Shown here: positions 3,267-32,928 of the stretch, piece after piece
Layout of the letters: each line of letters begins with the position of its first letter
How positions within the stretch are numbered: the first letter of the stretch is position 1
IMG/VR virus record: IMGVR_UViG_3300037310_000057
Span: 1 to 40,145 of that record
Reading direction: 5' to 3' (one strand)
Length of the DNA: 40,145 bases
DNA from: a virus
Lineage: Duplodnaviria > Caudoviricetes
The notes under the pieces: model-generated
The model's input: only the letters and a program-made list of their open reading frames with translations
Databases searched by the model: none
Told to the model about the DNA's origin: nothing
Position numbers and translations under genes: made by a program

Positions 3267-5100
3267 TCTCGGCAGTCTCGTCATCTCGATGGCGTTGGAT
3301 ATGGCGCGATTCCAGGGCGATCTTGGGCGCGCTGCTGCCATCACCGAGCGGCGGATGAAGAATATCAAAGAAACCTCGCAGCGCGCGTTTACAGCCTTGA
3401 CGCTGGCTGCTACGGCTGCTGGCGGTGCTTTGGTGACCATGGTCTCGCGCAGCCTGAAAGCGGCCGATGACGTGCGCGAATTGGCGATGGCGCTTGGCAC
3501 GACGACCGAGGAGTTGAGCGGGCTGATCGAGGCGGCTTCGCGGAGCGGCTTGTCGCAGGATCAGATTGCTACCGGAATGAAGCGCCTCTCGGCCAACGCC
3601 ATCGATGCCGCGAAGGGCGTCGGCGAGGCGTCCAAAGCGTTCAAGGCGCTCGGGATCAGCGTCAAGCGGGAAGACGGCACTATCAAGTCGTCTGGCGAAC
3701 TGATTCGCGAGATGGCAGACAAGTTCTCTCAGGCTCCCGATGGAATTACCAAAACCGCGCTCGCGATGGCGGTGTTTGGCAAGGAAGGGGCGGCGTGGAT
3801 TCCGTTCCTGAACGAGGGCTCTGTAAAGATCGACGCCCTGATCGAGCGCCTTGCCCGAATGGGCGTCGTTATCTCAACCGAGACCGGCGTCGCGGCAGAC
3901 CAGTTCCTGGACAACCTCAAGGATTTGAAGGATCTCAGTTCCGGCTTTTCCCGCCTTCTGGCCGCGGAACTTGCGCCTAGCCTTGCGAACGTGACCGGCG
4001 AACTAGTCAGGGACGCGCAGGGATTTGACACTCTCAAAGCGTCGGCTGAGTTCTTCGCCGACTTCGTCCGCGTCATCGTCAGCGGGCTCCTTATCATCAA
4101 GCAAGTCCTCTCTGAGCTCGGCAAGTCCGTTGGCGGGCTTGCGGCCGCCTTTGCTGCGGCCGCCCGCGGGGATTTCCGGGAAGCTTGGGACATTCTCGGG
4201 CAGCTTTCAGAAGATGGCGCTATCGAGCAGGAAAAGTTTATCACTGGCCTGCTCGATGTATGGGATAAGACAGCGCAGCAGACCTCCTCTGCCGCGCCCC
4301 GACTCGGAGCAGAGCTGGCCGCCCCTGCTAAAGAAGCGGCGAAACTGACCAAGGAGGCGGTCAAGGAACTCGAGCGCTACCACAACCAGGCGCGCCAGAT
4401 GGTGATCGACGCCAATCGGCTTAAGGAGTCTCTCTACACCAGCTTCGATACCGATAACGCGCTCGGCGAGAACACGCTTGCGATTGGCGAAGCGATGGCG
4501 AAAATTCGCGCCGAGACGCTTGAGATTCCTCCCGCAGCCGAGCTTGCCGCTGACTCGCTGTCAGTCTTTGCGGAGCAGGGCGCGCGCAACCTTCAATCAG
4601 CATTTGCTGATTTCCTGTTCGATCCATTTGAGGACGGGCTCAAGGGGATGCTGCGCGGTTTCATCGACACGATCAGGCGCATGGTTGCCGAGGCGGCGGC
4701 GGCGAAGTTGCTAGAGGGCGTCAGCGGGTTTCTGGGTAGCGTGCTTGGGGGGCTGTTTGGCGCCGGTACCGCAGTCTCTGGCGCGTCCGGCTCTGGATTG
4801 TCATCCTCCCTTTCCGGATTCCGCGCGATGGGCGGCCCGGTTTCTGGTGGTCGGTCCTACGTGGTCGGCGAGAATGGCGCCGAAATATTCAGGCCCGGAA
4901 CATCAGGAATGATTTATCCCAACGGCGCAACCGGCCAAAACGTCAATGTGACCATCGGCGGGACCACGATCAACGCGCCGAATGCCGATGCGAGTGTTCT
5001 GCCGCGCCTGAGCGCCTTGATCGACCAGAAGGATGCCGCGCTTGAGGCCAAGATCATTGACGGCTTCCGTCGCAATCGTTACCGCCTGGCTGAGACCTGA
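3256..5100 (+). CDS. Tape measure protein
   Basis: GTG 3256 after AGGAG; Ala-rich helical sequence; N-term GSLVISMALD; C-term RAMGGPV...YVVGENGAEIF. Confidence 0.92.
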   Translation: MAGSLGSLVISMALDMARFQGDLGRAAAITERRMKNIKETSQRAFTALTLAATAAGGALVTMVSRSLKAADDVRELAMALGTTTEELSGLIEAASRSGLSQDQIATGMKRLSANAIDAAKGVGEASKAFKALGISVKREDGTIKSSGELIREMADKFSQAPDGITKTALAMAVFGKEGAAWIPFLNEGSVKIDALIERLARMGVVISTETGVAADQFLDNLKDLKDLSSGFSRLLAAELAPSLANVTGELVRDAQGFDTLKASAEFFADFVRVIVSGLLIIKQVLSELGKSVGGLAAAFAAAARGDFREAWDILGQLSEDGAIEQEKFITGLLDVWDKTAQQTSSAAPRLGAELAAPAKEAAKLTKEAVKELERYHNQARQMVIDANRLKESLYTSFDTDNALGENTLAIGEAMAKIRAETLEIPPAAELAADSLSVFAEQGARNLQSAFADFLFDPFEDGLKGMLRGFIDTIRRMVAEAAAAKLLEGVSGFLGSVLGGLFGAGTAVSGASGSGLSSSLSGFRAMGGPVSGGRSYVVGENGAEIFRPGTSGMIYPNGATGQNVNVTIGGTTINAPNADASVLPRLSALIDQKDAALEAKIIDGFRRNRYRLAET

Positions 5101-6710
5101 TGGACATCCTGATTCCGTCTTGGGTCAAGTCTGCGGGCGTCAGTCTTCGCTATCTCGATTCTACTGGCGTCAGCCAGTCCGACTTCGGCGGCCCCCCGCG
5201 TACCGCCTCTCTAGGCGGCGATCGACTTGGCGCAAGTCTGCAATTCACGCCAACCGCCACCTCCGCGACCGATTCTGCAATGGAGCGGCGCCGCGTCATG
5301 GCGATCCAGATGGCCCTGCGGGGCCGCCAGGGGCGCTTATGGATGGCTAATCCGGCCCGCCGTCTTGGCGGCACCTTCCCCGCTTCTGAACTTCTCACCA
5401 ATCCTTCGTGGGCTGATGGCCTCACCGGCTGGACCACGTCCGGTAGCGAGGCGGTTTTATCGCTTGCAGATCGTCGCCTGCGTTCGACCCGCGCTGCGGG
5501 TATTACCGCGCGCTCAATTCGTAACGGTACTTCCTTCGGCGTCACTCAGTACGTCCCGTACATCGTCCGCGCATTGGCAATTCAGGGGCGCGGCCCCATA
5601 GATACTGCCCTCCGCCTTGGCACCACAAACGGCAACAATGACATTTTCTCGCAAGTACATTCCTCGGCCGGTTTATTGACGGGGGTTGCGGTTCCGGTTG
5701 CGACAGGTTCCGCATATTTCAGCTTGCTGGATGGCGCGAACTCTCGACCCGCCGGGGATTACCAGCTCTTCGACTATGTGAGCGTGTCGCGCGGGGCATT
5801 GGTGGATACCGGCGTGAACGTGCTGACCTACAGCTCTGACCTGTCTAACTCGATCTGGACAAAAAACAACGTCTCAATCTCAGCGACGTCTGTAACACTG
5901 CCGGATGGCACGACCGGAACGGTGAACTCTATCAAGGAAGACTCTACTGCCGGCTCGCAGCACCGCCTGCAACAGGTATATACCTGCCCGAGCGCGGCGC
6001 ACGATCTGACATTTTCCGCGGCTTTCAAACTGACAGTGAATCGTTCATGGGTTGCGCTTCGCATGTTTGAGGCGACAGGCAGCACGCTGGCAACGGCGAA
6101 CTTCAATACCAATGGCCCATCATTGGGCACGGTCGAAGCCGGGGCTAATTGGGCGAATCCACGCGCCTCGATGAGAGCAATTGGCGATGGCTGGTATCGG
6201 TGCAGCATCACGGCGCAGAAGACGAACAGCGCAACGTCCATCGAGGCGCGCATCTACGTTTGCGAGGCCGACAATGACTTTATCTTCGACGGCGGGAATC
6301 AGGACTCGATCCGAGTGTGGCTGCCGACGCTTGCGCCGACGAGTGTGCCAACACGGCTGATCTCCACGTCCGCCCTTTCGCTGCCTACCGGTACCGCGCC
6401 AACCGGGACCCTGCTCTATCTATGCGGTTTGCCAGCAAGCACGAGCGACTTGCTTCTGCCCGGCGATGAGATCGAAGTCATATCGTCCTATGGAAGCGAA
6501 TACAAGTTTGTTACCGACACTCTCAGTTCCGACGACGGGGGGCTCGGCACGCTGCATATTTCGCCGCCTATCCGCGGAGTGGTGTCTAACGGCGCGGCAG
6601 TAGTCGTCAGCGAGCCCCTGGGATACTGGATGCCGACTGATGTACTCGGATTCGATCACGCGCCAGGGGTATTGACCCAGGCCTCCATTGAATTGCAGGA
6701 GGCCGCGTGA
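5100..6710 (+). CDS. Distal tail protein (Dit-like) with inserted carbohydrate-binding-like beta-sandwich domains
   Basis: Directly after the tape measure gene; Dit-like termini (LRGRQG; LLPGDEI...ISPPIRG...ASIELQEA) flank about 340 aa containing ELLTNPSW and NVLTYSSDLSNSIWTK...GDGWYRC modules. Confidence 0.7.
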   Translation: MDILIPSWVKSAGVSLRYLDSTGVSQSDFGGPPRTASLGGDRLGASLQFTPTATSATDSAMERRRVMAIQMALRGRQGRLWMANPARRLGGTFPASELLTNPSWADGLTGWTTSGSEAVLSLADRRLRSTRAAGITARSIRNGTSFGVTQYVPYIVRALAIQGRGPIDTALRLGTTNGNNDIFSQVHSSAGLLTGVAVPVATGSAYFSLLDGANSRPAGDYQLFDYVSVSRGALVDTGVNVLTYSSDLSNSIWTKNNVSISATSVTLPDGTTGTVNSIKEDSTAGSQHRLQQVYTCPSAAHDLTFSAAFKLTVNRSWVALRMFEATGSTLATANFNTNGPSLGTVEAGANWANPRASMRAIGDGWYRCSITAQKTNSATSIEARIYVCEADNDFIFDGGNQDSIRVWLPTLAPTSVPTRLISTSALSLPTGTAPTGTLLYLCGLPASTSDLLLPGDEIEVISSYGSEYKFVTDTLSSDDGGLGTLHISPPIRGVVSNGAAVVVSEPLGYWMPTDVLGFDHAPGVLTQASIELQEAA

Positions 6711-6957: not shown

Positions 6958-9384
6958 ATGAAGTTTGCCGCCCTCTTACTCGCGCTGAACCTCGGGCAAG
7001 CAAGTCCGAGTTATGATGGGGTTATTTACGTATCTGAATATCCGAATGGCGACAAGCCTTCGGGCGGTACCTGCCCGCCCGCGACTTGGACCGGGCTAAA
7101 TCTCGGGGACGGCGGCGGAACGATTTGCGATAACGGTTCCGGGGATCTGTCTTTTTCCGTCACTGGCACAAATTCAATCGACAATGCCCGCATCATTCAT
7201 AAGGACGCGGGAGCCGGCGAGGTTCAGATTGAGGGCCATATCACAGCTAGCTTTGGCGGTTCTACAGAAGCCAATGCGGCTATCGGGCTTGGCCTCCGCG
7301 AGTCAACTAATACCGGATCTTGGGTAGCTCAGTGCAAGTCTTTGCAGACCAGCTCAACTTCTATTCAGTGTCAGTATGGGTTAACTGGTTCAACAACCAA
7401 CGTTAACTGCCAAGCTTCCGGCGCGACCCGCCCTGAATGGGCGGCAGTCACTTACTATCCGACTAACAATAGATTCAAAGGCCACACATCCGCAGATGGC
7501 TCAACATGGACGGAATGTTTCTCGGTTGACTACACGCCGTCAGACGTAATCGCATTCTTTATTGGCGGCTCCAAGTCTACGACTATTTCGCTCACGGCGA
7601 CTATGGAGGACTTCGCGCTCCTTACAGAGATTGATGCTTACGATGAGGTGCCAGACGGCGGCGGTAATCCTCCTGTGCTGGTAAATCCGATTCCAGATCA
7701 GAACGCCGCGCAGACCGTCCCCTACACATTTAACTTCACTAGCTATTTTACCGGGGCGACTTCACACACCGTCAGCGGCCTGCCTGCGGCCGGTGGGCTA
7801 TCTGAATCTTCTGACGGAGTAATCAGCGGAACGCCCGACTCTGACGACGCGGCGGCTTCACCGTTTCAGGTGACTATGTGCGGGGTTAACGGCGATGGCT
7901 CGACTTGTGACATAGCGCAATTTTCGGTTGCCGCGGTTCCTGGGGACACATTCACGATTTCTTCAAGTGCAACCCCTGCAAATTACGTCTTTGACTGTGC
8001 GACTACAACCAATTGTGGGCCGGGAGATGTGATCCTTATCGGCTCCGGCACGCACGTTAATCGCACCATCAATTTCAAGAATCTGATAGGCACAGCCGGA
8101 AGCCCGATCACAATTCGTAACGATACAACCGCTGGATCCAGAGCGACGATTAGACTTCCCTCTGGCCGCCCTCGTTTCGGCTTCCAGTGTGACAACTGCG
8201 AGAATGTCATCATCACCGGGCTCGGTGGCTGGAGCGGGCAGCCAGCGGGCGAATGCGGAGTTGTTGACAGCCCGAACGGCACGCAAGACGGCGGCGAAGA
8301 CGCCGTGGACGAGCACCTGACCGGCTGTGGCATTTTGTTCGACGGACTGACTAACGGTATCGCACAGGATATGGTGTTTCTAGATGGCACAAAGAAAAAC
8401 ATAACGATCGAAGGCCTAGAGTTCTCAGGCGATTGGAGCGGGCCCGGGGACGGAGCATTTGTTGAGGGGCATGGGGTCAGCCTCAATGGGAAGTCTGTTT
8501 GCTTGGCTGATGCGCCCAATGAATACATTGAAAACATCACAGTTCGTAAGAACTATTTACACAACATTCACGATACCTCGATGTATCTCGGTTCTAACTA
8601 TAAGGCCACGTGTGACGGACTAGAGGATAATACGCTGCCGCTGAGAGATATCATCGTCGAATACAACGTGTGGGATACCATCGGAGAGGGCGGCGCAAAG
8701 ATCAAGCGCGTACTATCCTCCGACCCGACGGACGCCATCATTCGCTACAATCACGGCCGCAACGGCGGCGGCTCGGATGCGCCCCAATCCTCGGGCCACA
8801 ACAGCATTCTGTTCCAGTGCTTCGAGGCAAGCTGTACTGTTTATGGAAACGTGTTAGATACGACCGTCACTGACGGCAAGACAGGGCCTGGGCTGTCGTG
8901 CGCCATTCAGCATCGCCCGGTTGCGGACGGGACACAGGTCTGTCACTTCTACAACAATACGATTCGCAATACGAGCAATTATGGCGTTTCAGGTTCGCGT
9001 GCTGACAGCGGGTCCTACGGAACGACGGCTCAGATCGAGATGCGGGTCGAGTACAACACGATAGTCGATGCGGCCCGTGACACCGGTAATTGCGTGAATG
9101 TCGGTAGCGCCATTACCGGAGCCGGTTTCGTGAGAGACATGATATGTGCTGGCGCGGTCACGTCGATCAGCGCTGGTTCCAGCATTGTGCAGTCCGCCAA
9201 TCAGCAGGGCACGGTGGCCGCGCAAAACTTCGTCAACTCCGGCGCGAAGAACTTTCGCCTTACCTCATCCAGCCCGGCTCGCAATACCGGCGGGGTTGGC
9301 GGGTGCCCCGCTGATGACGCTGACAAGGAAACGCGCCCGAAGGGCGGGACGTGCGACAGGGGGGCCGATGAGTTTACGGAATAG
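6958..9384 (+). CDS. Putative exported Cys-rich multidomain protein: lectin-like beta-sandwich, Ig-like domain, right-handed beta-helix, choice-of-anchor-Q-like C-terminus
   Basis: Start re-called at ATG 6958; N-term MKFAALLLALNLGQA; Ig signature NPPVLVNPIPDQ...GLPA..GL....GVISGTP; beta-helix repeats (ENITVRKNYLHN, DIIVEYN, CHFYNNTI); NFRLTSSSPARNTG...RPKGGTCDRGADEF; 24 Cys. Confidence 0.75.
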   Translation: MKFAALLLALNLGQASPSYDGVIYVSEYPNGDKPSGGTCPPATWTGLNLGDGGGTICDNGSGDLSFSVTGTNSIDNARIIHKDAGAGEVQIEGHITASFGGSTEANAAIGLGLRESTNTGSWVAQCKSLQTSSTSIQCQYGLTGSTTNVNCQASGATRPEWAAVTYYPTNNRFKGHTSADGSTWTECFSVDYTPSDVIAFFIGGSKSTTISLTATMEDFALLTEIDAYDEVPDGGGNPPVLVNPIPDQNAAQTVPYTFNFTSYFTGATSHTVSGLPAAGGLSESSDGVISGTPDSDDAAASPFQVTMCGVNGDGSTCDIAQFSVAAVPGDTFTISSSATPANYVFDCATTTNCGPGDVILIGSGTHVNRTINFKNLIGTAGSPITIRNDTTAGSRATIRLPSGRPRFGFQCDNCENVIITGLGGWSGQPAGECGVVDSPNGTQDGGEDAVDEHLTGCGILFDGLTNGIAQDMVFLDGTKKNITIEGLEFSGDWSGPGDGAFVEGHGVSLNGKSVCLADAPNEYIENITVRKNYLHNIHDTSMYLGSNYKATCDGLEDNTLPLRDIIVEYNVWDTIGEGGAKIKRVLSSDPTDAIIRYNHGRNGGGSDAPQSSGHNSILFQCFEASCTVYGNVLDTTVTDGKTGPGLSCAIQHRPVADGTQVCHFYNNTIRNTSNYGVSGSRADSGSYGTTAQIEMRVEYNTIVDAARDTGNCVNVGSAITGAGFVRDMICAGAVTSISAGSSIVQSANQQGTVAAQNFVNSGAKNFRLTSSSPARNTGGVGGCPADDADKETRPKGGTCDRGADEFTE

Positions 9385-11098
9385 TCTGCGGGCTTTCGCT
9401 CTTTGTGGTGCGCTGTTAAGCGTACCGGCTCACGGCGCAATTGCGTTCCGAGATAAGGGTACACCAGACAACGACTTGGCAAGCAACTCTATCACCGTCC
9501 CCGTCCCGGCATCGGCCACGACGGGCGATGCCATGTTCATTCTTTATACGCTGTCGGCAGACGCCGCCGGGGAGGATGGTGATACGCCAACGGACTGGAT
9601 GTTGCTGGAATCAATCACCAACAACGGAACTGGCGAGTCCATTCAGCAAAAAGTGTATTGCAAAATCCATGACGGCAGTGAATCAAGTGTTGTCATAACC
9701 GCAACAGGCGCCGGCACCGGCGACGTTCATTCTGGCCGCATGATCGCATTCAGCGGGACACTCGACACTTGCACCGGGATCGTCGCGCACACCAATGAGC
9801 AGGGCAACTCAGCGGCCAGCAATATTGCACATCCGGGCCTGACTGTTTCCACGGCGAATACCCTCATCATCGCGGTCGGCGGCAAGCGGGCCTGCGAAGC
9901 GTGCGCGTGGTCAACGCTCAGCGGATTCACTGAGGAGTTTGATAACGTCACGACCTCAGGCGACGATCAAAGTTTCGTGCTGGACTACCAGATCCAGACT
10001 ACCGCAACCAATATCTCATCGGGTTCTTTCAGCGCGTCAGCAGGAGACGAAACGCAGATTTCCGTGGCGATCCTCTTGAGCATCAAAGAGGCCGCCAGCG
10101 CCCCTGTTTTTACCGTGGGTCCAAGCGAATCCCCGGCGACCAACGGCTTCACGATCAGCGGTACTATTACCGGCGCCGGTACTCTCACGGTTGAGGCGGT
10201 CGCCTGCAATCCTGGCGATGCGGCTCCGTCCAATGCCGAACTTGAGGCTGGTCAGTGCGGCGGTGGTAATGCTGCCCTGATGAACGCTTCCGAGGTATGG
10301 ACGAGTGGAGTCTCAAACGATTTCCTTCTGACTTCGGCTAACAAGCCGGTGCGGTTCGATGTCTACGTCGCTGGTACTAACGGGACGGACGATACCGCGG
10401 TTACGTCCCTGACGGATCAGGACCGCTCCATCCGTTCCGGTTATCTTTCCGTGGTCATAACTTCTCACTCGACGACCGGAATCTGCAACCTCGATTCTTA
10501 CTTCACGCCTGACTGCGCGGATGGAGACGTTTTCGAGTATGAGGACGATACCAACGAGAATGCTGATTGCAACGTCACGATAGAGGCGGACGGCGACGTT
10601 GTGTTGACCCCGGTCTCAGCCGGAGACTGTGGCGGCCCAGGCGACCGCCGCACCTTCGAGATCAGCTATCAGGACGTGTCCATCGCCACGGATGGCCTAT
10701 TCACCGCGCCGACAGTTGGCAACTTCACGACCGATGATACGATAGCGGTTAACAATTCCGCGCCTTACTACGTAGGAGAAAGCGAAGATTTCCTCTTTGA
10801 GAGAAATGCAAGTCTCGGTTCGGGAGTAGATTTCAAGCCCCGCTGGGAAGATGACGACGGCGATACTCCTATCGTTACCTTTCAGGACGCTCCTCCGGCT
10901 GGTCTGACAATGACATCAGGTGTGCTAACAGGCACGCCCACAACCTGCCAAAGCCTTCCCATTACCGAACGCGCCGCTGATAGTTTCGGCGATTTCAATG
11001 AGCAGGAAATTGAGATAGACATAGGCTTTGTGATTCCGAATGTGGTCGGATTGACCGAAGCTGCAGCGGTTTCGGCCATCGAAGCACCATGCCAATAA
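9368..11098 (+). CDS. Putative exported Cys-rich beta-sandwich/Ig-like protein ending in the N-terminal part of a PASTA domain
   Basis: Start re-called at ATG 9368; MSLRNSLRAFALCGALLSVPAHG|AIAF signal peptide; PPAGLTMTSGVLTGTPT Ig motif; C-term IPNVVGLTEAAAVSAIEAPCQ. Confidence 0.75.
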   Translation: MSLRNSLRAFALCGALLSVPAHGAIAFRDKGTPDNDLASNSITVPVPASATTGDAMFILYTLSADAAGEDGDTPTDWMLLESITNNGTGESIQQKVYCKIHDGSESSVVITATGAGTGDVHSGRMIAFSGTLDTCTGIVAHTNEQGNSAASNIAHPGLTVSTANTLIIAVGGKRACEACAWSTLSGFTEEFDNVTTSGDDQSFVLDYQIQTTATNISSGSFSASAGDETQISVAILLSIKEAASAPVFTVGPSESPATNGFTISGTITGAGTLTVEAVACNPGDAAPSNAELEAGQCGGGNAALMNASEVWTSGVSNDFLLTSANKPVRFDVYVAGTNGTDDTAVTSLTDQDRSIRSGYLSVVITSHSTTGICNLDSYFTPDCADGDVFEYEDDTNENADCNVTIEADGDVVLTPVSAGDCGGPGDRRTFEISYQDVSIATDGLFTAPTVGNFTTDDTIAVNNSAPYYVGESEDFLFERNASLGSGVDFKPRWEDDDGDTPIVTFQDAPPAGLTMTSGVLTGTPTTCQSLPITERAADSFGDFNEQEIEIDIGFVIPNVVGLTEAAAVSAIEAPCQ

Positions 11099-11853
11099 AT
11101 AAACTTTACGAACATAGCAATACGGTTCCGGTTGGCAATGTCATCAGGACCGAACCGGAAAGCGGAACCCTGGTCTCGCCAGACGCTATCGTCACGCTTT
11201 ACATTAGTCTTGGCCCTGGCGGCTGGTTCTACAATTCGGCCAATGCTGACGAAGCGCAAAAGACCCGTTACGCGATGTTTATTGCCGTTAGCATGGATTT
11301 CCCATCTGCTTTCGTTCGGGTCTGGTCCGGTTTCGGTCAGATCACGATCTTGGGGCAGGTCTATACCGGGCTCGGATACCTGGGGCGCGTTTCATCGGTG
11401 CCGGAGCGTTCTAACCTGACCTTCGAGCGCAAGACTTACCAGATCGCAGGCGCAGAAGTTGATCCGTCGCTGATCTCTGAGACCGATCTTGAAGGTTCAT
11501 TTGGGCGATCGGTGACCGAGTACCTGGGTTTTCTAGATGAAAGCGGCGCTTTGCTAGAAGACCCTGAAGTTCTTTTCGAGGGAGAGATCAGCAATATCCG
11601 GCGGATGGACGGCAAAGAATCGGCCATTGAAGTCAACGCCGAGAATCGCCTAACCATGCTTGAACGCGTGGATGGCTGGCGCTATACGCACGAGCACCAG
11701 CAGCAGTTCTACAATGTGAATCCTGAAGATATCGGATTCAATCAGGTCAAGGTGATGGCGACTCGCGAGATATTTTGGGGCGGGGCCAGGGTCGGCGGCA
11801 CTTACGAGGGCGGCGGCGGCGGTCGCCGCCGTGAGGGTGGGGGCCGCCGCTGA
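11089..11853 (+). CDS. Tail tip hub/minor tail protein with an N-terminal partial PASTA domain
   Basis: Core VRVWSGFG...YTGLGYLG...LFEGEI...IEVNAENRL...YTHEHQQQ...GFNQV...EIFWG; located before the NlpC-like and J-like genes; N-term EHSNTVPVGNVIRTEPESGTLVSPDAIVTLYISLGP. Confidence 0.8.
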   Translation: MPINKLYEHSNTVPVGNVIRTEPESGTLVSPDAIVTLYISLGPGGWFYNSANADEAQKTRYAMFIAVSMDFPSAFVRVWSGFGQITILGQVYTGLGYLGRVSSVPERSNLTFERKTYQIAGAEVDPSLISETDLEGSFGRSVTEYLGFLDESGALLEDPEVLFEGEISNIRRMDGKESAIEVNAENRLTMLERVDGWRYTHEHQQQFYNVNPEDIGFNQVKVMATREIFWGGARVGGTYEGGGGGRRREGGGRR

Positions 11854-12248
11854 TGCGTGATCCGCGCTGGCCGCAGCTCCTCGGCGACAAGGTAGAGGAG
11901 TGGCGGGGCCGCGCCTTTAGATGGGGCCGCGCCGACTGCTGGCAATTCGTCGGCGATGCCGTCGAGGCCATGACCGGCATCGATTACCGGGACAGATTCC
12001 CGAAGTACCGCTCGAAGCGTGAAGCGTTGGCGATCCTCGAGAGTACCGGAGACATGCTTGGACTCGCTGAGTCTGTATGGGGTCCGGCTAAACCTCCCGC
12101 GCACGCGCTTGAGGGCGATGTTGTGTTACTCAATCTCAGGCGCGGGCTGACAGCGGGGATCTGTCTCGGGCAGCAGTGTGCCGCAACGGGAACAAATGGA
12201 TTGGTGTTTGTATCCCGCGATGCGGCCGCGGCGGCCTGGAGTATCTGA
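11853..12248 (+). CDS. NlpC/P60-like tail assembly protein (DUF6950-like)
   Basis: FRWGRADCWQFVGDAVEAMTG, GDVVL, AGICLG, terminal AWSI. Confidence 0.82.
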   Translation: MRDPRWPQLLGDKVEEWRGRAFRWGRADCWQFVGDAVEAMTGIDYRDRFPKYRSKREALAILESTGDMLGLAESVWGPAKPPAHALEGDVVLLNLRRGLTAGICLGQQCAATGTNGLVFVSRDAAAAAWSI

Positions 12249-14803
12249 TGCCCCAGGCAATAGCTCCTGTTTTCATTGCTATAGGCGCAAGTGCTACAAC
12301 TGCGCTGGTGCTTGCACAGATAACAGTTACGATTCTTATTAACGTTGCGCTTGGCGCCTTGTCGAAGGCGCTTGCAAAGAATCCGAAGCAGCAGGCGCCG
12401 GCGATCAACGTCACGGTTCGTGATCAGGTCGAGAATCGCCGTCTCGTATTTGGTCGCAAGCGTTGCGGCGGCGCGATGGTGTTCGTGGATGCGACCGGCG
12501 AGAAAAACAACACTCTCTGGTATGTGATCGTCTATGCCGGGCACCAGGTTCAAAAACTCGGCGACGTATGGATCGACAAGATTCGCATCCCGAACAGCAA
12601 TATTGGAGGCGGCGCTGCAGAAGGCGGGGCGGTCACAACGGGCACCTTTGCGAACAAGCTATGGATTTACAAGTATCTTGGCACCTCGACTCAAATCGCC
12701 AATTCGCAGCTAAGGAACGCGACATCCCTGTGGACTAGCAATCATCGGCTGCGGGGGTGTGCATACATTGTTGTTAAGATGGAGCGCGACGATTCCGCAT
12801 ACCCGCAGGGTCCGCCAAATGACGTTACGTGCGAAGTTGACGGGATGCTGTGCTATGACCCGCGCTTAGATACCACAGCCGGCGGATCAGGATCGCATCG
12901 CAAGGAGGATCCTCGGACGTGGGCTTTTACGCGCAATCCGGCCCTTCACCTGTACTGGTACCTGACTGGCGGGAGCGTCCATAACAATCGCGACACGCGC
13001 AAGGTATTGTATGGACTTAGAGAAAACGCATCGCGCATTCCAGATTCCTACATCATTGCCGCCGCAAATAAGTGCGACGAGACGCTGTCCGGCAATGCCG
13101 CGCCTCCGTCTGGTAATCAGACGAGGTACTACTGCGACCTAGAGGTATCAACCGGAGAGACACGTCGCGAAATTATAGAATCAATTCTCGCAACCTTCGC
13201 GGCTACGCTGGTACCCACCCGCGGCGAGTACCGTCTCTATGCCGGTTCATACCAGGCGCCATCCCATGCATTCACCGAAAAAGACTTGTACGGGCAATTG
13301 GAGGTTGAGGATACCCACGACCACGACCGGCGCAGGAATGCTGTCGCTGGTGTTTATATCGACGCTAGCAACGAGTACATCGAGGCAACTACGATATTCC
13401 GTACCGATTCCGGTTACGAAACCCAAGACGGAAGTCGCCGTATAGAAACAGAGATAGACCTGCGCGGGGTGACAAATCAATATCAAGCCCAGCGTCTGTG
13501 CGAACTCAGGCTTCGCAAAACGAGAATGCAGCGATCAATCAAACTGATTGGCGCCCTGAACCTGATGAAGGTCTCCATTGGCGAGACGATATCGTTCAGC
13601 CACTCACGCTTCGGATGGAGCGGACGCGTGTTCCGTTGCATCGAGAAACAATTTGAGCCCCCGATTCCAGGCGGACATGCTGGCCAAGTCATTCTGACCT
13701 GCGAGGCCGATGATGCGGCGGTGTACAATGATTTGCTTACTAATGACTACACGACGGGAACCAGCTCTACTGACACGCTTGCAAAGGAACGCCCGGACGA
13801 GCCTTCCAATCTAAGCTCGCGTGGCATCGAGGGCGCAATCCGCTGGACTTGGGACCGCCCTGCTGTGCTGCTTCCTGGGACCACTTTTGAACTTCGCACC
13901 TCTGCAAGTTCTACGATGTCAACTCCGACTACGCAATATCAGGGGCCAGATCATTCGTTTGAACAGGCGCGCACAACCACGGCGCTGACCTATGCCCAAG
14001 TCCGCTCGGTGTTGCGCGGCGCGACGTCCGACTGGGTGCCCGAAACCAATGGAGTCCCCGGCAAGGCGGCCAATGTTGCGACGGCGTTGAATGCATCCGC
14101 AAGTCCTGGCAGCGTGCTGTCTGCGACCGGATCAGCAAGTCAGACCACGGGCAGCGTCACGGTCACAGCGACCGGCGGAACACCGCCCTATACCTATGCT
14201 TGGACTTGGGCTTCTGGCGGCGCGAGTATCACTATTACTTCTAACACTTCGGCCGCGACAACTTTCAGTGCCACAAGTCTCGCCAATGGGGAGACTCGAT
14301 CCGGGATAGCTCGATGTACTGTAACGGACAACGTGTCAGCGACCTATTCGGTTGATTCTGAGGTGACCATCAAACGACCCAGCGCCGATGTACAGGCGCC
14401 GCTCATATCAATAGATTCAAGCACAACCTCGCCAAATGACGCGATCTGCTCATTCAAGTTTGACAATGACGGACATTGGTACTCATCTCCGACCAGCGCA
14501 ACACCCTCGATTGACGAAGGCCTCTGGTGTGATCCGGTTGAATATGCCGGGGACTATCAAATTAATATTACTCGGACTGGTGGCAGCGAAACTAATTTCA
14601 CTGCCGGTCCGGCTCTCAATACCTGGCACGCGCTGTCGACGGACAGGACTTGGTCGCTATCGAATACAAACAATACCTCGACCGAGATCATGAAGTCCAT
14701 CGCTTTCAAGATTGATATACGCCGCGCGTCCGACTCGGTGATCGTCGCGACGAGTGTTAATAACTGGCTGATCTCAACTGTGAGCGGGGAGTACCTCCCT
14801 TAA
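12248..14803 (+). CDS. Tail tip attachment protein J-like / central fibre with FN3 and Ig-like C-terminal domains
   Basis: Start re-called at ATG 12248; RRLVFGRKR.GG, HRLRGCAY, YDPRLD, NPAL, VTNQYQAQRL motifs; ATGGTPPYTYAW Ig motif. Confidence 0.88.
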   Translation: MPQAIAPVFIAIGASATTALVLAQITVTILINVALGALSKALAKNPKQQAPAINVTVRDQVENRRLVFGRKRCGGAMVFVDATGEKNNTLWYVIVYAGHQVQKLGDVWIDKIRIPNSNIGGGAAEGGAVTTGTFANKLWIYKYLGTSTQIANSQLRNATSLWTSNHRLRGCAYIVVKMERDDSAYPQGPPNDVTCEVDGMLCYDPRLDTTAGGSGSHRKEDPRTWAFTRNPALHLYWYLTGGSVHNNRDTRKVLYGLRENASRIPDSYIIAAANKCDETLSGNAAPPSGNQTRYYCDLEVSTGETRREIIESILATFAATLVPTRGEYRLYAGSYQAPSHAFTEKDLYGQLEVEDTHDHDRRRNAVAGVYIDASNEYIEATTIFRTDSGYETQDGSRRIETEIDLRGVTNQYQAQRLCELRLRKTRMQRSIKLIGALNLMKVSIGETISFSHSRFGWSGRVFRCIEKQFEPPIPGGHAGQVILTCEADDAAVYNDLLTNDYTTGTSSTDTLAKERPDEPSNLSSRGIEGAIRWTWDRPAVLLPGTTFELRTSASSTMSTPTTQYQGPDHSFEQARTTTALTYAQVRSVLRGATSDWVPETNGVPGKAANVATALNASASPGSVLSATGSASQTTGSVTVTATGGTPPYTYAWTWASGGASITITSNTSAATTFSATSLANGETRSGIARCTVTDNVSATYSVDSEVTIKRPSADVQAPLISIDSSTTSPNDAICSFKFDNDGHWYSSPTSATPSIDEGLWCDPVEYAGDYQINITRTGGSETNFTAGPALNTWHALSTDRTWSLSNTNNTSTEIMKSIAFKIDIRRASDSVIVATSVNNWLISTVSGEYLP

Positions 14804-15908: not shown

Positions 15909-16514
15909 ATGAGCCCGCTGTCGATGTTCTCTGCGCCGCTAGCCTGGGTAAGGCTTGCGGCTGGTGTAGTCGTGCTCGGCGCGCTGATCTGGCTCGGCGT
16001 GATCGTCAATAGTTGGCACGAAGCATCGCTGCGGCTCGCCGTCGTCGAGCTAGAGCGCGATCAGGCGCTGGCCGACCTGTCCCTGCGCGATACGCAATAC
16101 CTCGAGGCCCAGGAGGCGTCGAATGGATACCAGTCCGAACTTCAGGCTCTCCGTGTTACTGCTTCTCGCGCCCGCGTTCCTATTGCTCGGTTGTGCCCAC
16201 GACCCGCCGCGGCCGACCGCCGATCGATATCCTCCGCCGGGACCGGATCTGATGCAGCCCCCGCCGCCGCCGGGGGAGTTCCGACGGAGGATGAAGTGCG
16301 CCGTGGACGAGACATCGGACCCGAGCTGTTCGAACTGGCGGACAGGGCCGACGAGCTGAGCGCACAGGTACGGGGACTGCAAGCCTACGCGCGAGCCTGC
16401 AGCGCGGCGCCAGACGAGATCGACCCTGCTCCAATCGTTACGCCAGATATGAGGACCCCGCGATCACCGAATCCGTGGGACGGGATGAACGAAATACCGA
16501 AGCGTCCGGCGTGA
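15909..16514 (+). CDS. Rz-like inner-membrane spanin
   Basis: N-terminal TM helix, coiled coil, C-term LADRADELSAQVRGLQAY..AC; contains a nested lipoprotein ORF. Confidence 0.85.
   Translation: MSPLSMFSAPLAWVRLAAGVVVLGALIWLGVIVNSWHEASLRLAVVELERDQALADLSLRDTQYLEAQEASNGYQSELQALRVTASRARVPIARLCPRPAAADRRSISSAGTGSDAAPAAAGGVPTEDEVRRGRDIGPELFELADRADELSAQVRGLQAYARACSAAPDEIDPAPIVTPDMRTPRSPNPWDGMNEIPKRPA
16123..16359 (+). CDS. Rz1-like outer-membrane lipoprotein spanin, nested in the +1 frame of Rz
   Basis: Hydrophobic signal with lipobox LLGC followed by a Pro-rich mature chain. Confidence 0.82.
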   Translation: MDTSPNFRLSVLLLLAPAFLLLGCAHDPPRPTADRYPPPGPDLMQPPPPPGEFRRRMKCAVDETSDPSCSNWRTGPTS

Positions 16515-17020
16515 CGACAATCGCATGGGACGGTCGCGCGCTGGCGTCTGATTCCAGAGCGACTTGGGACGGGCACGTTAAAAGCAATTGCGTGAAGATG
16601 TGGCGCGTCCAGTCGCGCGTCGATCCGGTCAAGGGCGAGTGTCTGCTCGGAATTGCCGGAGATTTGTATTCGGCGCTGCTGTTCAAAGACTGGCTGGAAC
16701 TTGGCGGTGAGCCGCATTTGGTCAAGCGCGGCGTAACTGGCGATGAATGCGATGGCGGCGGGGATTTCGATGCCCTGATCGTCCACCGGCGCGGCGTCTA
16801 CGGAGCCAATTTCCTGTGCAGGCTTGAGCCTATCGGTATGGACGAATGGGCGCATGGCAGTGGCCGCATGGCTGCGCTTGCAGCGATGGCGTGTGGTAAG
16901 TCTGCGATCGATGCGGTCAGGATTGCGGCGCGATTCGATGTTTACACGGGCGGGCGCGTGGTTTCGATGTCTCTGGATCAATCCAGCCCAAAGCGGGCGC
17001 GGAAGAAAGGAAAAACCTGA
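16511..17020 (+). CDS. Ntn-hydrolase (HslV/proteasome beta-subunit-like) protease
   Basis: Start re-called at GTG 16511 (GTGA overlap), giving M-TTIAWDG...ASDSR with an N-terminal Thr; GIAG, AHGSG...ALAAM...AVRIAARFDVYTGG motifs. Confidence 0.82.
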   Translation: MTTIAWDGRALASDSRATWDGHVKSNCVKMWRVQSRVDPVKGECLLGIAGDLYSALLFKDWLELGGEPHLVKRGVTGDECDGGGDFDALIVHRRGVYGANFLCRLEPIGMDEWAHGSGRMAALAAMACGKSAIDAVRIAARFDVYTGGRVVSMSLDQSSPKRARKKGKT

Positions 17021-26708: not shown

Positions 26709-26941
26709 TGGGAACCTTTGCGCCGGTTGATCCGCGACAGGAGGCGATCGACTGCCTGCGTAGTGACGGGCCGCTATCCGATCCGCGTTACCTGACGCCG
26801 AACAAGGCCGCAGAGGCCGAGAAGCGACTCAAGGAGCGGTGCCGGAAATGCTGGGCGCTGCGAAAGCATTTCCCGGCGTGGCTCGAATGGTGGATCGCGA
26901 AGTGGTCGGGTGAGGGCAAGTCGAAGGACTGGGCCGCATGA
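26708..26941 (+). CDS. Hypothetical protein
   Basis: Coupled overlaps on both sides. Confidence 0.65.
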   Translation: MGTFAPVDPRQEAIDCLRSDGPLSDPRYLTPNKAAEAEKRLKERCRKCWALRKHFPAWLEWWIAKWSGEGKSKDWAA

Positions 26942-27360
26942 GCGCAGCAATGGATTACTTGACGTTCATCGCCAACAAGACCCCGAAAGCCTTAGAGCGT
27001 GGGCTATCAAGGATTCCGAACATTTCGGAGTCCCTGTTTCCGTTTCAGCGCCATTGCGCTGAGTTCCTTTTGCGGGTCGGGTCGGGCGGGTTGTTTCTCG
27101 ATACCGGGCTCGGGAAAACCCTGGTTCAGTTGGAGTATGCCGAGCACGCCAGGAATGCTGACAACGGCAAGGCGCTGATTCTCTGGAGCAATCCAGGCGA
27201 TACGGTTCTTTCCCCATTTATGGGAATTGGGAGCGAGGGGTATCAATCAATCAGGGCCCGACGAAAGTTCATTGGCATCGAATTGAAGCGGGAATATTGG
27301 CGGCAGGCTTGCGAGAACCTGAAGGGAGCGGCAGGCCAGGCCGATATGTTTGCGGCATGA
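26938..27360 (+). pseudogene. In-frame deletion fusion of a SNF2-type helicase N-terminus and an N4/N6 DNA methyltransferase C-terminus
   Basis: LFPFQ...GLFLDTGLGKT...KALIL joins directly to WSNPGDTVLSPFMGIGSEGY...FIGIELK; the DExH helicase motifs and the SPP(F/Y) catalytic motif are absent. Confidence 0.8.
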
Positions 27361-27982: not shown

Positions 27983-28284
27983 TGCCGCAATTCAGTCCAG
28001 TCTTCGACGTGTTTTTAGCCTTGCTTGCGATCCTCTGCATCGTGGCCGGGGCCGCCGTTCCCGCGCCTCCGACACTGCGGGCGTACCTGGTGATATTCGG
28101 GACGATTCTGCTTGGCTATCAACTGACGCGCATCTACATCGCGCTTCATCTGCTCGAGCGCCGCGCAACCCTGTTCGATCCCGAGCCGGGGGGCGGTAAG
28201 GAGGCCCGCGAAACCGACTGGCCGCAGGAAGTGAAGGACATGCCCGACTACGAGAACGTGAGGCCCATCAGGAGGGCGGCGTAA
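27982..28284 (+). CDS. Two-TM membrane protein
   Basis: Start re-called at ATG 27982; two hydrophobic segments. Confidence 0.65.
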   Translation: MPQFSPVFDVFLALLAILCIVAGAAVPAPPTLRAYLVIFGTILLGYQLTRIYIALHLLERRATLFDPEPGGGKEARETDWPQEVKDMPDYENVRPIRRAA

Positions 28285-28469
28285 TGACAACACTGGCAGA
28301 GCTGCGCGCCAAACTGGCAGATCAGGGCATCACGCTGACGGTCATCCGGGCATTTCACGCCACAGTCAGGAAGGGCATCGTTTACCGGCAGGACCCGCCA
28401 AAGAACACGATCCTGCGAAGCGGCATGACACTAACCCTCTGGATCAGTAAGGGGAAAAAACCGGGATGA
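28284..28469 (+). CDS. Stand-alone PASTA-like mini-protein
   Basis: LAELRAKLADQGITL......HATVRKGIVYRQDPPKNTILRSGMTLTLWISKG matches the PASTA consensus minus its first strand. Confidence 0.72.
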   Translation: MTTLAELRAKLADQGITLTVIRAFHATVRKGIVYRQDPPKNTILRSGMTLTLWISKGKKPG

Positions 28470-30432: not shown

Positions 30433-32928
30433 GTGGCTGATAACACCACCATCAATGCGGGGTCGGGCGGCGACACGATCGCGACCGATGACATTGGCGG
30501 CGTCAAGTACCAGCGGGTGAAACTCTCGCTTGGGGCCGATGGGTCAGCCAGTGACGCGCCCATCGGCGGGGGCGTCGAGTCCGGGGCGCTGCGGGTTACG
30601 CTTGCCAGCAATTCGACGGGTGTAATTGCGGTCACTGACAACGCCGGTTCGTTAACGGTTGATGGCTCGGTCAGTATTGGCGCGGCGCTCCCGGCCGGCG
30701 ATAACAACATCGGCAACGTTGACATCGTCACGATGCCCGCTTTGTCCGCCGGTACTAACAACATCGGCGACGTTGACGTGTTGACGGTCCCGGCCCCGCT
30801 GTCCACGACGGGCGGAGGCACCGAGGCAACCGCGCTTCGTGTCACTTTAGCGAACGATTCGACCGGCCTTGTTTCGGTTGACGACAACGGCGGATCTCTG
30901 ACTGTTGACGGCTCTGTGAGCCTCGCCGGCGCCATCCCTGCCGGGTCGAACAACATCGGGGATGTTGATGTCCTGAGCCTGCCGGCCTTACCGGCTGGTT
31001 CAAACAACATCGGGGACGTGGATGTTCTCTCCGTGGTTCCCGGCACGGGCGCGACGAACCTTGGCAAAGCCGTCGATGCTGCTGCTGGCAGCACGGACAC
31101 CGGCGTTGCGCCGCTTGCGGTTCGGGACGATTCGTTATCCGCGCTGACCCCGGCTGAGGGCGACTACGTTCCCCTGCGGGTCAATTCGCAAGGCGCCTTG
31201 CACGTCACTGGTGGCGGCGGCGGGACGCAGTACAACATCGACGATGTTGCCTCTGCGACCGCAACCGGCAATGTCGCGCTGGTGGTCCGCAAAGATTCTG
31301 CGGCATCTCTGGCCGGCACGGATGGAGACATCAGCGCGCTGCAGGTAGACGCCAATGGCGCCTTGCGGGTGACGGGCGGCGGTGGCGGGACGGAGTACAC
31401 CGAAGACGCTGCGGCAGCCGCAGACCCGGTTGGTAACGCGCTCATCATGGTGCGCGATGACGCGCTTTCCGGGCAGACCAGCGCGGATGGCGATAACGTC
31501 GCGGCCCGAGGAACCGACAAGGGCGAGCTCTACGTCAAGCATGTAGACGCGATCCCGGTCACGGATAACGCCGGTTCGCTGACGGTAGACGGGACCGTTA
31601 CTGCGAACCTTGCGGCCGGCACGAACAACATTGGTGACGTGGATGTTTTGAGCGTTCCGGCGCCGCTTTCGACCAGCGGCGGAGGCACGGAAGCATCCGC
31701 GCTCCGGGTCACCATTGCCAACGATTCGACTGGCGTCGTCAGCATCGACGACAATGGTGCGTCGATCACCGTCGATGGAACGGTCGGGCTTGCGGCCGGA
31801 ACAAACAATATCGGCGACGTGGACGTGCTCACGTTGCCAAACGTGACCCTTGCCGCTGGTACAAACACCAACGAAGTGGTAGGCGACGCGGCGCACGATG
31901 CTGCGGTTGCAGGCAATCCGCTGCTGCAGGGCGGATATGCCAGCGCCGCCGCTCCTTCGGATGTCTCCGCCGATGGCGACGTTGTTCGCTCCTGGCACCT
32001 ACGCAACGGCGCACAAGCCACAGTTATCACGGCGGCCGGCGCTTTGGTCGGGGGTGACGCGACCAATGGGCTTGACGTAGACGTTACCAGGCTTCCATCG
32101 GGAACTGTGGCTGGAGCCGCGAGCCTGCCTGCCGGCACGAATAATATCGGTGACGTTGATGTACTAACGGTACCAGCGCCCCTTTCTACGACGGGCGGAG
32201 GCACCGAGGCAACCGCGCTTCGCGTCACTTTAGCCAGCGACTCTACCGGCCTTGTTTCGGTTGACGACAACGGCGGATCGCTGACTGTTGATGGAACCGT
32301 TACCGCAAACCTTGCGGCCGGTACTAACAACATAGGCGATGTTGATGTTCTATCCATAGCCGCCGGCGATAACAACATCGGCAACGTGGACATCGTCACG
32401 ATGCCCAACGTCACGCTTGCCGCCGGGACCAATACCAATGAGGTAGTTGGAGACGCCGCCCACGATGCTGCTGCGGCCGGGAATCCGGTTCTCATTGGCG
32501 CGCAGATGGAGACACCGGCCGACTCCGCCCCCGGGACCAGGGCGAGCGCGGACGGGGACGCCAACAAGATCGCGACTCTCGATGGCGCTGTATTTACGAT
32601 CCCTGGCAGTCCGCAGCAGTGGAGCGCCAGACTCACCGGGTCCATGACCGATACCACCGTGAAGTCCGCGCCTGGTGCGGGACTTTCCCTGTACATCACG
32701 TCTATCGTGTATTCCATCGGCGCGGCCACCGCTTCCTCGATCCTGCTCGAGGAAAGCACAACCACGGCCAAGTTTGGCCCGCACTACCTTGAAGCAATAA
32801 ACGGCCGCGGATTGGCAGTCACCTTTGCGGTGCCGATCAAGATCGCGGCGAACACGCTGTTGTCTGCTACTAACACGGGCTCGACGACAGCCACTCTGGA
32901 CGTGTACGGATTCACGGCTCCAGGCTGA
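30433..32928 (+). CDS. Large repeat-rich fibre-like virion protein
   Basis: GAGGAG RBS; 9 copies of AG(T/S/D)NNIG(D/N)VD(V/I) and 3 copies of VPAPLST.GGGTEA.ALRVT.A.DSTG.VS.DDNG; beta-rich C-terminal domain. Confidence 0.75.
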   Translation: MADNTTINAGSGGDTIATDDIGGVKYQRVKLSLGADGSASDAPIGGGVESGALRVTLASNSTGVIAVTDNAGSLTVDGSVSIGAALPAGDNNIGNVDIVTMPALSAGTNNIGDVDVLTVPAPLSTTGGGTEATALRVTLANDSTGLVSVDDNGGSLTVDGSVSLAGAIPAGSNNIGDVDVLSLPALPAGSNNIGDVDVLSVVPGTGATNLGKAVDAAAGSTDTGVAPLAVRDDSLSALTPAEGDYVPLRVNSQGALHVTGGGGGTQYNIDDVASATATGNVALVVRKDSAASLAGTDGDISALQVDANGALRVTGGGGGTEYTEDAAAAADPVGNALIMVRDDALSGQTSADGDNVAARGTDKGELYVKHVDAIPVTDNAGSLTVDGTVTANLAAGTNNIGDVDVLSVPAPLSTSGGGTEASALRVTIANDSTGVVSIDDNGASITVDGTVGLAAGTNNIGDVDVLTLPNVTLAAGTNTNEVVGDAAHDAAVAGNPLLQGGYASAAAPSDVSADGDVVRSWHLRNGAQATVITAAGALVGGDATNGLDVDVTRLPSGTVAGAASLPAGTNNIGDVDVLTVPAPLSTTGGGTEATALRVTLASDSTGLVSVDDNGGSLTVDGTVTANLAAGTNNIGDVDVLSIAAGDNNIGNVDIVTMPNVTLAAGTNTNEVVGDAAHDAAAAGNPVLIGAQMETPADSAPGTRASADGDANKIATLDGAVFTIPGSPQQWSARLTGSMTDTTVKSAPGAGLSLYITSIVYSIGAATASSILLEESTTTAKFGPHYLEAINGRGLAVTFAVPIKIAANTLLSATNTGSTTATLDVYGFTAPG

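What the first reader, a model, noticed from the sequence alone, without database searches (positions are those of the whole stretch)
11030..11217. PASTA domain split across two adjacent genes (exported protein C-terminus and tail hub N-terminus)
Seen: ORF 9368-11098 ends VIPNVVGLTEAAAVSAIEAPCQ*, the first strand and helix of PASTA. The overlapping hub ORF, in the -1 frame, starts MPINKLYEHSNTVPVGNVIRTEPESGTLVSPDAIVTLYISLGP, the remaining strands. Joined, they give a PASTA of nearly normal length. There is no XXXYYYZ slippery heptamer before the stop. The terminal Cys makes the upstream Cys count even, hinting that the stop is real. Inference: the halves may re-form one domain in trans as a fold-complementation 'plug and socket' that docks the exported protein on the tail tip. 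Alternatives are a non-canonical frameshift, a gene-fission or insertion scar, or a 1-bp assembly error.
Basis: partly seen in the sequence, partly recalled or inferred. Interest (0 to 1): 0.85.

Follow-up and report, generated by a model that had tools for sequence, protein, structure and literature searches.

The report
Split PASTA domain links phage proteins
An uncultured phage and several relatives keep one small protein domain (PASTA) cut in two, half at the end of a protein with an export signal and half at the start of a tail-tip protein, and the halves likely re-join as a plug and socket that attaches the exported protein to the virus particle when the cell bursts.

Summary
The split is real and conserved; docking is inferred. 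In a 40-kb siphophage, ORF 9368-11098 ends in PASTA positions 3-20 and tail hub 11089-11853 begins with positions 30-63. A second assembly of the probable source run is identical. Two other metagenome loci show the same split; in one, the other reading frame and an in-frame stop before the hub ATG exclude frameshifting. Two more pairs are likely from shared contig lengths. 9 of 81 hubs start with the strand half; 16 of 42 upstream homologues end in the helix half plus Cys. Both halves are conserved. The closest homologue carries the domain uncut. Upstream proteins have signal-peptide-like starts and even cysteine counts, and the terminal Cys co-occurs with a partner Cys (7 of 7 versus 0 of 34). 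Best reading (0.55): fold complementation docks a periplasm-folded, cadherin-like appendage on the hub at lysis. Binding is untested (complex prediction unavailable), and partners of 12 helix-half proteins are unknown.

The parts
5100..6710 (+). Distal tail protein (Dit) with inserted domain; upstream boundary of the cassette
   Evidence: PHROG 1302 distal tail protein E 2.3e-9; homologues in 8 loci
6958..9384 (+). First exported protein (808 aa from the likely start): signal-peptide-like start, 24 Cys, Ig-like domain, C-terminal choice-of-anchor Q; no PASTA half
   Evidence: He_PIG E 0.0013; NF041518 E 1.3e-7
9368..11098 (+). Second exported protein (576 aa): all-beta Ig/cadherin-like array ending in the PASTA helix half
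   Evidence: AlphaFold2 mean pLDDT 78.7; Foldseek hits to cadherin and SraP arrays, local only, TM about 0.15; 41 homologues
9368..9436 (+). Sec-type signal peptide (predicted, aa 1-23, by eye and a simple hydropathy rule)
   Evidence: 35 of 41 homologues pass the same rule, 0 of 81 hubs
10946..10948 (+). Cys527 in GTPTxC of the last Ig-like domain; predicted disulfide partner of Cys575
   Evidence: co-occurrence 7 of 7 versus 0 of 34 among 41 parsed of 47 junctions
11030..11095 (+). PASTA N-terminal half ('plug': first strand and helix) with terminal Cys575 at 11090-11092
   Evidence: PF03793 positions 3-20; helix 564-572 at pLDDT 82-89 per ten-residue block; P, G, two A and C invariant in 17 of 17 selected rows
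11089..11853 (+). Tail-tip hub protein (254 aa, no Cys, no signal peptide), start overlapping the upstream stop by 10 nt
   Evidence: PHROG 2048 tail protein E 4e-40; about 34% identity to 9g/JenK1 tail proteins; Foldseek hits to T5, JBD30, Chi, lambda tail-tip chains from a low-confidence model
11107..11217 (+). PASTA C-terminal half ('socket': remaining strands) at the hub N-terminus
   Evidence: PF03793 positions 30-63; three strands at pLDDT 65-84; 56% identity to the uncut domain of P0084
11853..12248 (+). DUF6950 / NlpC-P60-like tail assembly protein
   Evidence: PF22262 E 5e-32
12248..14803 (+). Central tail fibre (J-like)
   Evidence: PHROG 5616 and 31
15909..16514 (+). Rz-like spanin, pointing to a host with an outer membrane and periplasm
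   Evidence: PHROG 2466 E 9e-6

Best explanation
One PASTA domain is encoded as two pieces on two adjacent, separately started genes, and the pieces likely re-form the domain in trans, which would dock an exported, disulfide-folded appendage onto the tail hub when lysis mixes periplasm and cytoplasm. Shown: the split, its conservation, the absence of a frameshift route in L006, and a natural uncut version. Strongly inferred: the upstream protein is exported by Sec and oxidised (signal-peptide-like start, even Cys), and Cys575 staples the helix half to the preceding domain. Inferred, untested: the hub is built into the tail in the cytoplasm with an open PASTA sheet on its N-terminus; after holin, endolysin and spanin action the helix half of the exported protein completes the fold; the first exported protein (6958-9384) may ride on the second as the variable head.
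For: (1) Same split point in 3 of 3 loci with DNA where a half-PASTA hub was seen: window, L005 (hub 71% identical), L006 (58%); P0088/P0005 and P0089/P0006 share single-contig lengths of 47,306 and 12,759 nt, so two more pairs are likely. (2) 7 of 7 loci whose hub lacks PASTA have Dit 205-334 nt before the hub and no ORF of 150 aa or more between. (3) Purifying selection: in 12 proteins with an intact PASTA and a terminal half, the terminal half is 67% identical pairwise against 45% for the same part of the intact copy; in 17 half-ending rows 66% against 61% for the core and 41% for the Ig domain; hub half 62% against hub core 70%; window versus L005 has 8 synonymous/8 non-synonymous and 8/4 changed codons in the two halves. 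(4) P0084, sister of the window protein on the core tree, holds both halves in one chain with the same Cys pair. (5) Cys pair present together in 7, absent together in 34, never alone; absent in the two uncut copies in proteins without a signal peptide in L014. (6) Even Cys counts after residue 25 in 15 of 16 half-ending and 21 of 22 other proteins. (7) 8 of 9 half hubs have no Cys, so any contact is non-covalent. (8) C-terminal modules are scattered over the core tree (helix half: at least 4 + 2 forced changes), as expected of exchangeable docking ends.
Against: P0110 ends in the half but has no signal peptide as called. The 7 Cys-pair proteins and 8 of the 9 half hubs are kin, so counts overstate independent events. 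Hub starts come from gene calls, not proteomics. The helix half is modelled confidently without its partner, which also fits a self-contained cap. No cultured phage carries the upstream gene, so there is no virion proteome.
Confidence: 0.55

Rival explanations
1. Fission scar with independent halves: the helix half is a disulfide-stapled cap of a protein that works in the host envelope or outside the cell, and the strand half is a tolerated or separately useful appendage of the hub.
For: A disulfide can hold the helix half without a partner. 61 of 81 hubs lack any PASTA and 5 have a full PASTA-like domain, so the hub N-terminus tolerates additions. No partner seen for 12 helix-half proteins.
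Against: The orphan half is better conserved than the same part of an intact copy; core-facing hydrophobic positions persist in both halves; the halves stay adjacent through two junction geometries.
Confidence: 0.22
2. The halves do complement, but not only with each other: the helix half is a general plug for a strand half on other virion proteins, or the hub half is capped in the cytoplasm by another helix donor such as the small PASTA-like ORF at 28284-28469.
For: The exported family also sits in podovirus-like and T4-like loci with other C-terminal modules; the genome has a 61-aa PASTA-like ORF without first strand or signal peptide.
Against: In 3 of 3 loci with DNA the two halves are neighbours. 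The 28284 ORF has no match in the other loci held, which are too short to cover that region, so this is untested.
Confidence: 0.15
3. Recoding (frameshift, readthrough or bypass) makes a fused exported-protein-hub chain with an intact PASTA.
For: In the window and L005 the hub frame is open upstream of its start (from 11014 and 5050) and the overlap is the same 10 nt.
Against: No slippery heptamer in 3 of 3 loci; in L006 the hub is in the +1 frame and a TAG lies two codons before its ATG; no stable RNA structure; a fused hub would carry a signal peptide. A search for hubs over 460 aa gave 1 hit, a PASTA-only match (weak evidence).
Confidence: 0.06
4. One-base assembly or sequencing error in a fused gene.
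For: The window junction is A+T-rich.
Against: Identical in a second assembly at depth 27.7; same split in L005 and L006; 8 other hubs called with the same short start; 15 other proteins stop at the same Cys.
Confidence: 0.01

Closest known systems
PASTA domain (Pfam PF03793; S. aureus PrkC/Stk1 ectodomain, PDB 3py9, 3m9g)
   Same: Both halves match complementary parts of the model; the hub profile matches the 3py9/3m9g repeats; the hub model gives a weak Foldseek hit to 3py9 (E 0.043).
   Different: Known PASTA domains are single-chain repeats on kinases and penicillin-binding proteins (recalled). Here the domain is cut inside, between helix and second strand, on two genes whose products are predicted to lie in different compartments.
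Siphophage tail-tip hub proteins (9g/JenK1 tail protein, PHROG 2048; JBD30, Chi, T5, lambda L chains)
   Same: Position between Dit and an NlpC/P60-like gene plus central fibre; sequence and fold matches.
   Different: None of the 105 matching phage records covers 80% of the query; the 20 listed start at residue 54-57, so they lack the PASTA half.
Donor-strand complementation in chaperone-usher pili (recalled, not from a call)
   Same: An incomplete fold on one chain is completed by an element from another; the working principle proposed here.
   Different: Ig fold and a donated strand there; PASTA fold and a donated strand-plus-helix here; no chaperone or usher; not homologous.
Signal-peptide-bearing, even-cysteine tail modules noted earlier in this scan (30 findings; unchecked AI notes)
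   Same: Exported, cysteine-paired proteins encoded in tail modules.
   Different: The eight notes shown name no attachment mechanism; no finding holds 'PASTA phage split' together.

Membership tests
PASTA domain PF03793 | Profile match above the curated cut-off (23.2 bits) | tested here: met
   Hub half 32.4 bits; helix half alone 13.3 bits, below cut-off as expected for 18 positions
PASTA domain PF03793 | Helix and strands in one polypeptide | tested here: not met
   Stop at 11096-11098 and separate start at 11089; same in L005 and L006
PASTA domain PF03793 | The two parts assemble into the PASTA fold | not tested
PASTA domain PF03793 | Binding of muropeptides or beta-lactams (recalled; shown for some members only) | not testable with these tools
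   needs a binding assay
Siphophage tail-tip hub | Sequence or fold match to hub proteins and position after Dit, before the central fibre | tested here: met
   (model pLDDT only 50)
Siphophage tail-tip hub | Present in the virion tail tip | not testable with these tools
   uncultured phage
Sec-exported disulfide-bonded protein | N-terminal basic-hydrophobic-AxA signal and even Cys in the mature part | tested here: met
   35 of 41 homologues by a simple rule (no SignalP on hand); even counts in 36 of 38; even-Cys bias in exported proteins per PMC7678975 passages
Programmed -1 ribosomal frameshift | XXXYYYZ slippery site and conserved frame relation | tested here: not met
   0 of 3 loci have the heptamer; frames -1, -1, +1; in-frame TAG in L006
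Chaperone-usher donor-strand complementation | Incomplete Ig fold completed by a donor strand, with chaperone and usher genes | tested here: not met
   The split fold is PASTA; no such hits among 28 proteins scanned. Works-like analogy only.

The most novel reading that the evidence does not exclude
A family of tailed phages finishes its particles only at lysis: appendages are folded and oxidised in the periplasm and then click onto the tail through a PASTA domain split between the two compartments, one of several swappable C-terminal docking ends of a widespread exported-appendage family.
Probability: 0.5. Interest if true: 0.92.

Novelty: categorically new. Interest (0 to 1): 0.8.

Why it matters
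Tailed-phage particles are held to assemble in the cytoplasm (established knowledge), yet many uncultured phages put export signals on tail-module proteins, and how such proteins could reach the virion is open. This locus gives a concrete, small, testable attachment site: a 22-residue plug and a 43-residue socket. If they bind, it shows post-lysis completion of virions, a structural role for PASTA unrelated to cell-wall sensing, and a natural split-domain tag pair.

Tried and rejected
Structure comparison of the hub model by the wide aligner: machine busy, not run. No RNA holder listed. Run X2 covers only 9000-10092, not the junction. GTDB genomes: no relative of hub or upstream protein. IMG/VR pattern scans for the terminal half and the hub half: 0 matches; the two matches are chance, in frames with stops; one search gave only loci already held. 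Cultured phages: no match to the upstream protein. ESM Atlas: no usable feature hit, structure hits all TM under 0.5. Representative search: no fused exported-protein-hub among the best 150 of 2950 hits; long hits were PASTA-repeat matches by their matched stretch, and 6 hubs inspected had other extensions. Pfam does not detect the uncut PASTA of P0084 or 4 of the 5 full-PASTA-like hubs; their assignment rests on BLAST and motif reading. The one-clade test for the 9 half hubs did not finish. One search was an uninformative pattern. Slippage, RNA structure and assembly error were rejected as above.

Full report
Setting. The window is a whole virus record with direct terminal repeats and HK97-like head genes, a lambda-like tail tube, tape measure, Dit, hub, DUF6950 and a J-like central fibre. 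Endolysin and an Rz-like spanin point to a host with an outer membrane. Between Dit and hub lie two long ORFs, 6958-9384 and 9368-11098, both starting with signal-peptide-like segments and rich in cysteine. The probable source run is a freshwater metagenome.

Observation. The last 22 residues of ORF 9368-11098 match PASTA model positions 3-20 and hub residues 7-40 match positions 30-63. The ORFs overlap by 10 nt. A 27.9-kb contig from the probable source run, depth 27.7, is identical over 9000-13000; this is a second assembly of probably the same reads.

Conservation of the split. Of 81 hub proteins (leaving out one PASTA-only hit), 61 have no N-terminal extension, 9 including the window's start with the strand half, 5 carry a full PASTA-like domain and 6 are truncated. 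The half hubs all begin 5-8 residues before the YEHS-like motif. The metagenome scan gave 4 loci, 2 with a half hub. In L005 the upstream signal-peptide protein ends in the helix half plus Cys-Pro and the hub starts at a GTG with the same 10-nt overlap. In L006 the upstream ORF ends in the helix half plus Cys-Asn-Pro, there is a 7-nt gap, the hub is in the +1 frame and a TAG stands two codons before its ATG, so a fused product cannot arise by a simple shift. Of 42 upstream-family proteins (self included), 16 end in the helix half: 4 directly after an Ig-like domain and 12 after a further intact PASTA-like domain. P0088/P0005 and P0089/P0006 are singletons on contigs of equal length, so probably two more adjacent pairs; their DNA was not seen. 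All 7 loci with a PASTA-less hub have Dit 205-334 nt upstream and no ORF of 150 aa or more between.

Selection and cysteines. The terminal half is better conserved than the same part of the intact PASTA in the same 12 proteins (67% against 45%) and as well as the protein core; the hub half is nearly as conserved as the hub core (62% against 70%). Cys counts after residue 25 are even in 36 of 38 full-length proteins counted, the bias reported for exported proteins of Gram-negative bacteria (PMC7678975, passages read). The Cys of GTPTxC and the Cys at the end of the next PASTA helix are both present in 7 and both absent in 34 of 41 junctions parsed (6 of 47 not parsed). In the 12 proteins with an extra PASTA, a Cys 56-58 residues from the end takes the partner's place. 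Uncut Ig-PASTA units in proteins without a signal peptide in a T4-like locus lack both Cys. I infer an intramolecular disulfide that holds the helix half in place. The hub has no Cys to bond with.

An uncut version. P0084, 69% identical over residues 300-576 and sister to the window protein, aligns to the upstream protein up to its last Cys (49% over 132 aa) and, nine residues later, to the hub half (56% over 36 aa, E 4e-10), then continues into another domain. So the two halves are parts of one domain in a close relative. The direction, fission or re-fusion, is not resolved. On a tree of 75 hub cores without the extension, 8 half hubs form one clade (100/99) while the L006-type hub P0008 lies apart, weakly beside the full-PASTA hubs (85/84); with its different junction this allows a second origin or a module swap, but the formal test did not finish. 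C-terminal module types are scattered on the tree of 40 upstream cores, and the family also occurs in podovirus-like and T4-like loci.

Models. The upstream protein is an all-beta Ig/cadherin-like array with a terminal helix (pLDDT 78.7). The hub model is weak (pLDDT 50) but matches tail-tip hubs, and its first 40 residues form three strands. No model of the pair could be obtained.

Mechanism. Best reading (0.55): the two genes are translationally coupled (inferred from overlap or 7-nt gap); one product goes through Sec and folds with disulfides in the periplasm; the hub is built into the tail with an open PASTA sheet; at lysis the compartments mix and the helix half completes the domain, giving the virion an adhesin-like arm. 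Against it: no binding data; no partner found for the 12 'intact + half' proteins even on four long contigs; P0110 lacks a signal peptide as called; counts are among kin. Rivals: independent halves (0.22), complementation with other partners (0.15), recoding (0.06), error (0.01).

Literature. Nine searches of the held library gave no paper on a split PASTA domain, on PASTA in a tail hub, or on exported tail proteins joining the virion at lysis; I saw listings and abstract openings only, apart from the passages of PMC7678975, and no supplements. The library lacks most subscription papers, so absence is limited evidence. Earlier notes of this scan list 30 findings of signal-peptide tail modules (8 shown), none on a split PASTA; they are unchecked leads, not support. 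Pilus donor-strand complementation and the usual roles of PASTA are recalled, not from a call.

Verdict. A real, conserved, selected split of a domain between a predicted exported protein and a tail hub; no precedent found; docking role plausible and cheap to test. Interest 0.8.

Noticed in passing
window 28284-28469 (+): A second, stand-alone PASTA-like ORF (61 aa, model positions 10-64, E 4e-10), basic, without first strand or signal peptide, outside the tail module.
   Followed up: partly
window 30433-32928 (+): 831-aa protein with many repeats of a GxNNIGDVDVL-like unit, no Pfam hit, PHROG 9224 of unknown function, outside the tail module.
   Followed up: no
window 6958-9384 (+); L005 1449-3425; L012 5206-7998; L013 5566-7629: The exported gene comes as a pair: a variable signal-peptide protein precedes the Ig-PASTA protein in siphovirus- and podovirus-like loci.
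   Followed up: partly
P0085, P0093, P0103, P0106, P0117, P0121, P0123 C-termini; L013 7626-9977: Other recurring C-terminal ends of the same exported family: a basic RxLGxGxG-like tail, a WVDYIP-repeat domain and a WVSY-RVW domain; candidates for alternative docking modules.
   Followed up: partly
L014 1693-7218 and 7230-11570: T4-like locus (next to a gp8-like gene) with two giant proteins without signal peptide that hold the same Ig-PASTA unit uncut and without the Cys pair.
   Followed up: partly
P0010, P0013, P0014, P0015, P0018: A clade of hubs with a full PASTA-like N-terminal domain; gene context not seen.
   Followed up: partly
window 26938-27360 (+): ORF that reads like the two ends of a helicase/methyltransferase gene with the middle missing (by eye).
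   Followed up: no
window 16475-17020 (+): HslV-family peptidase-like gene right after the lysis genes (PHROG 1040).
   Followed up: no
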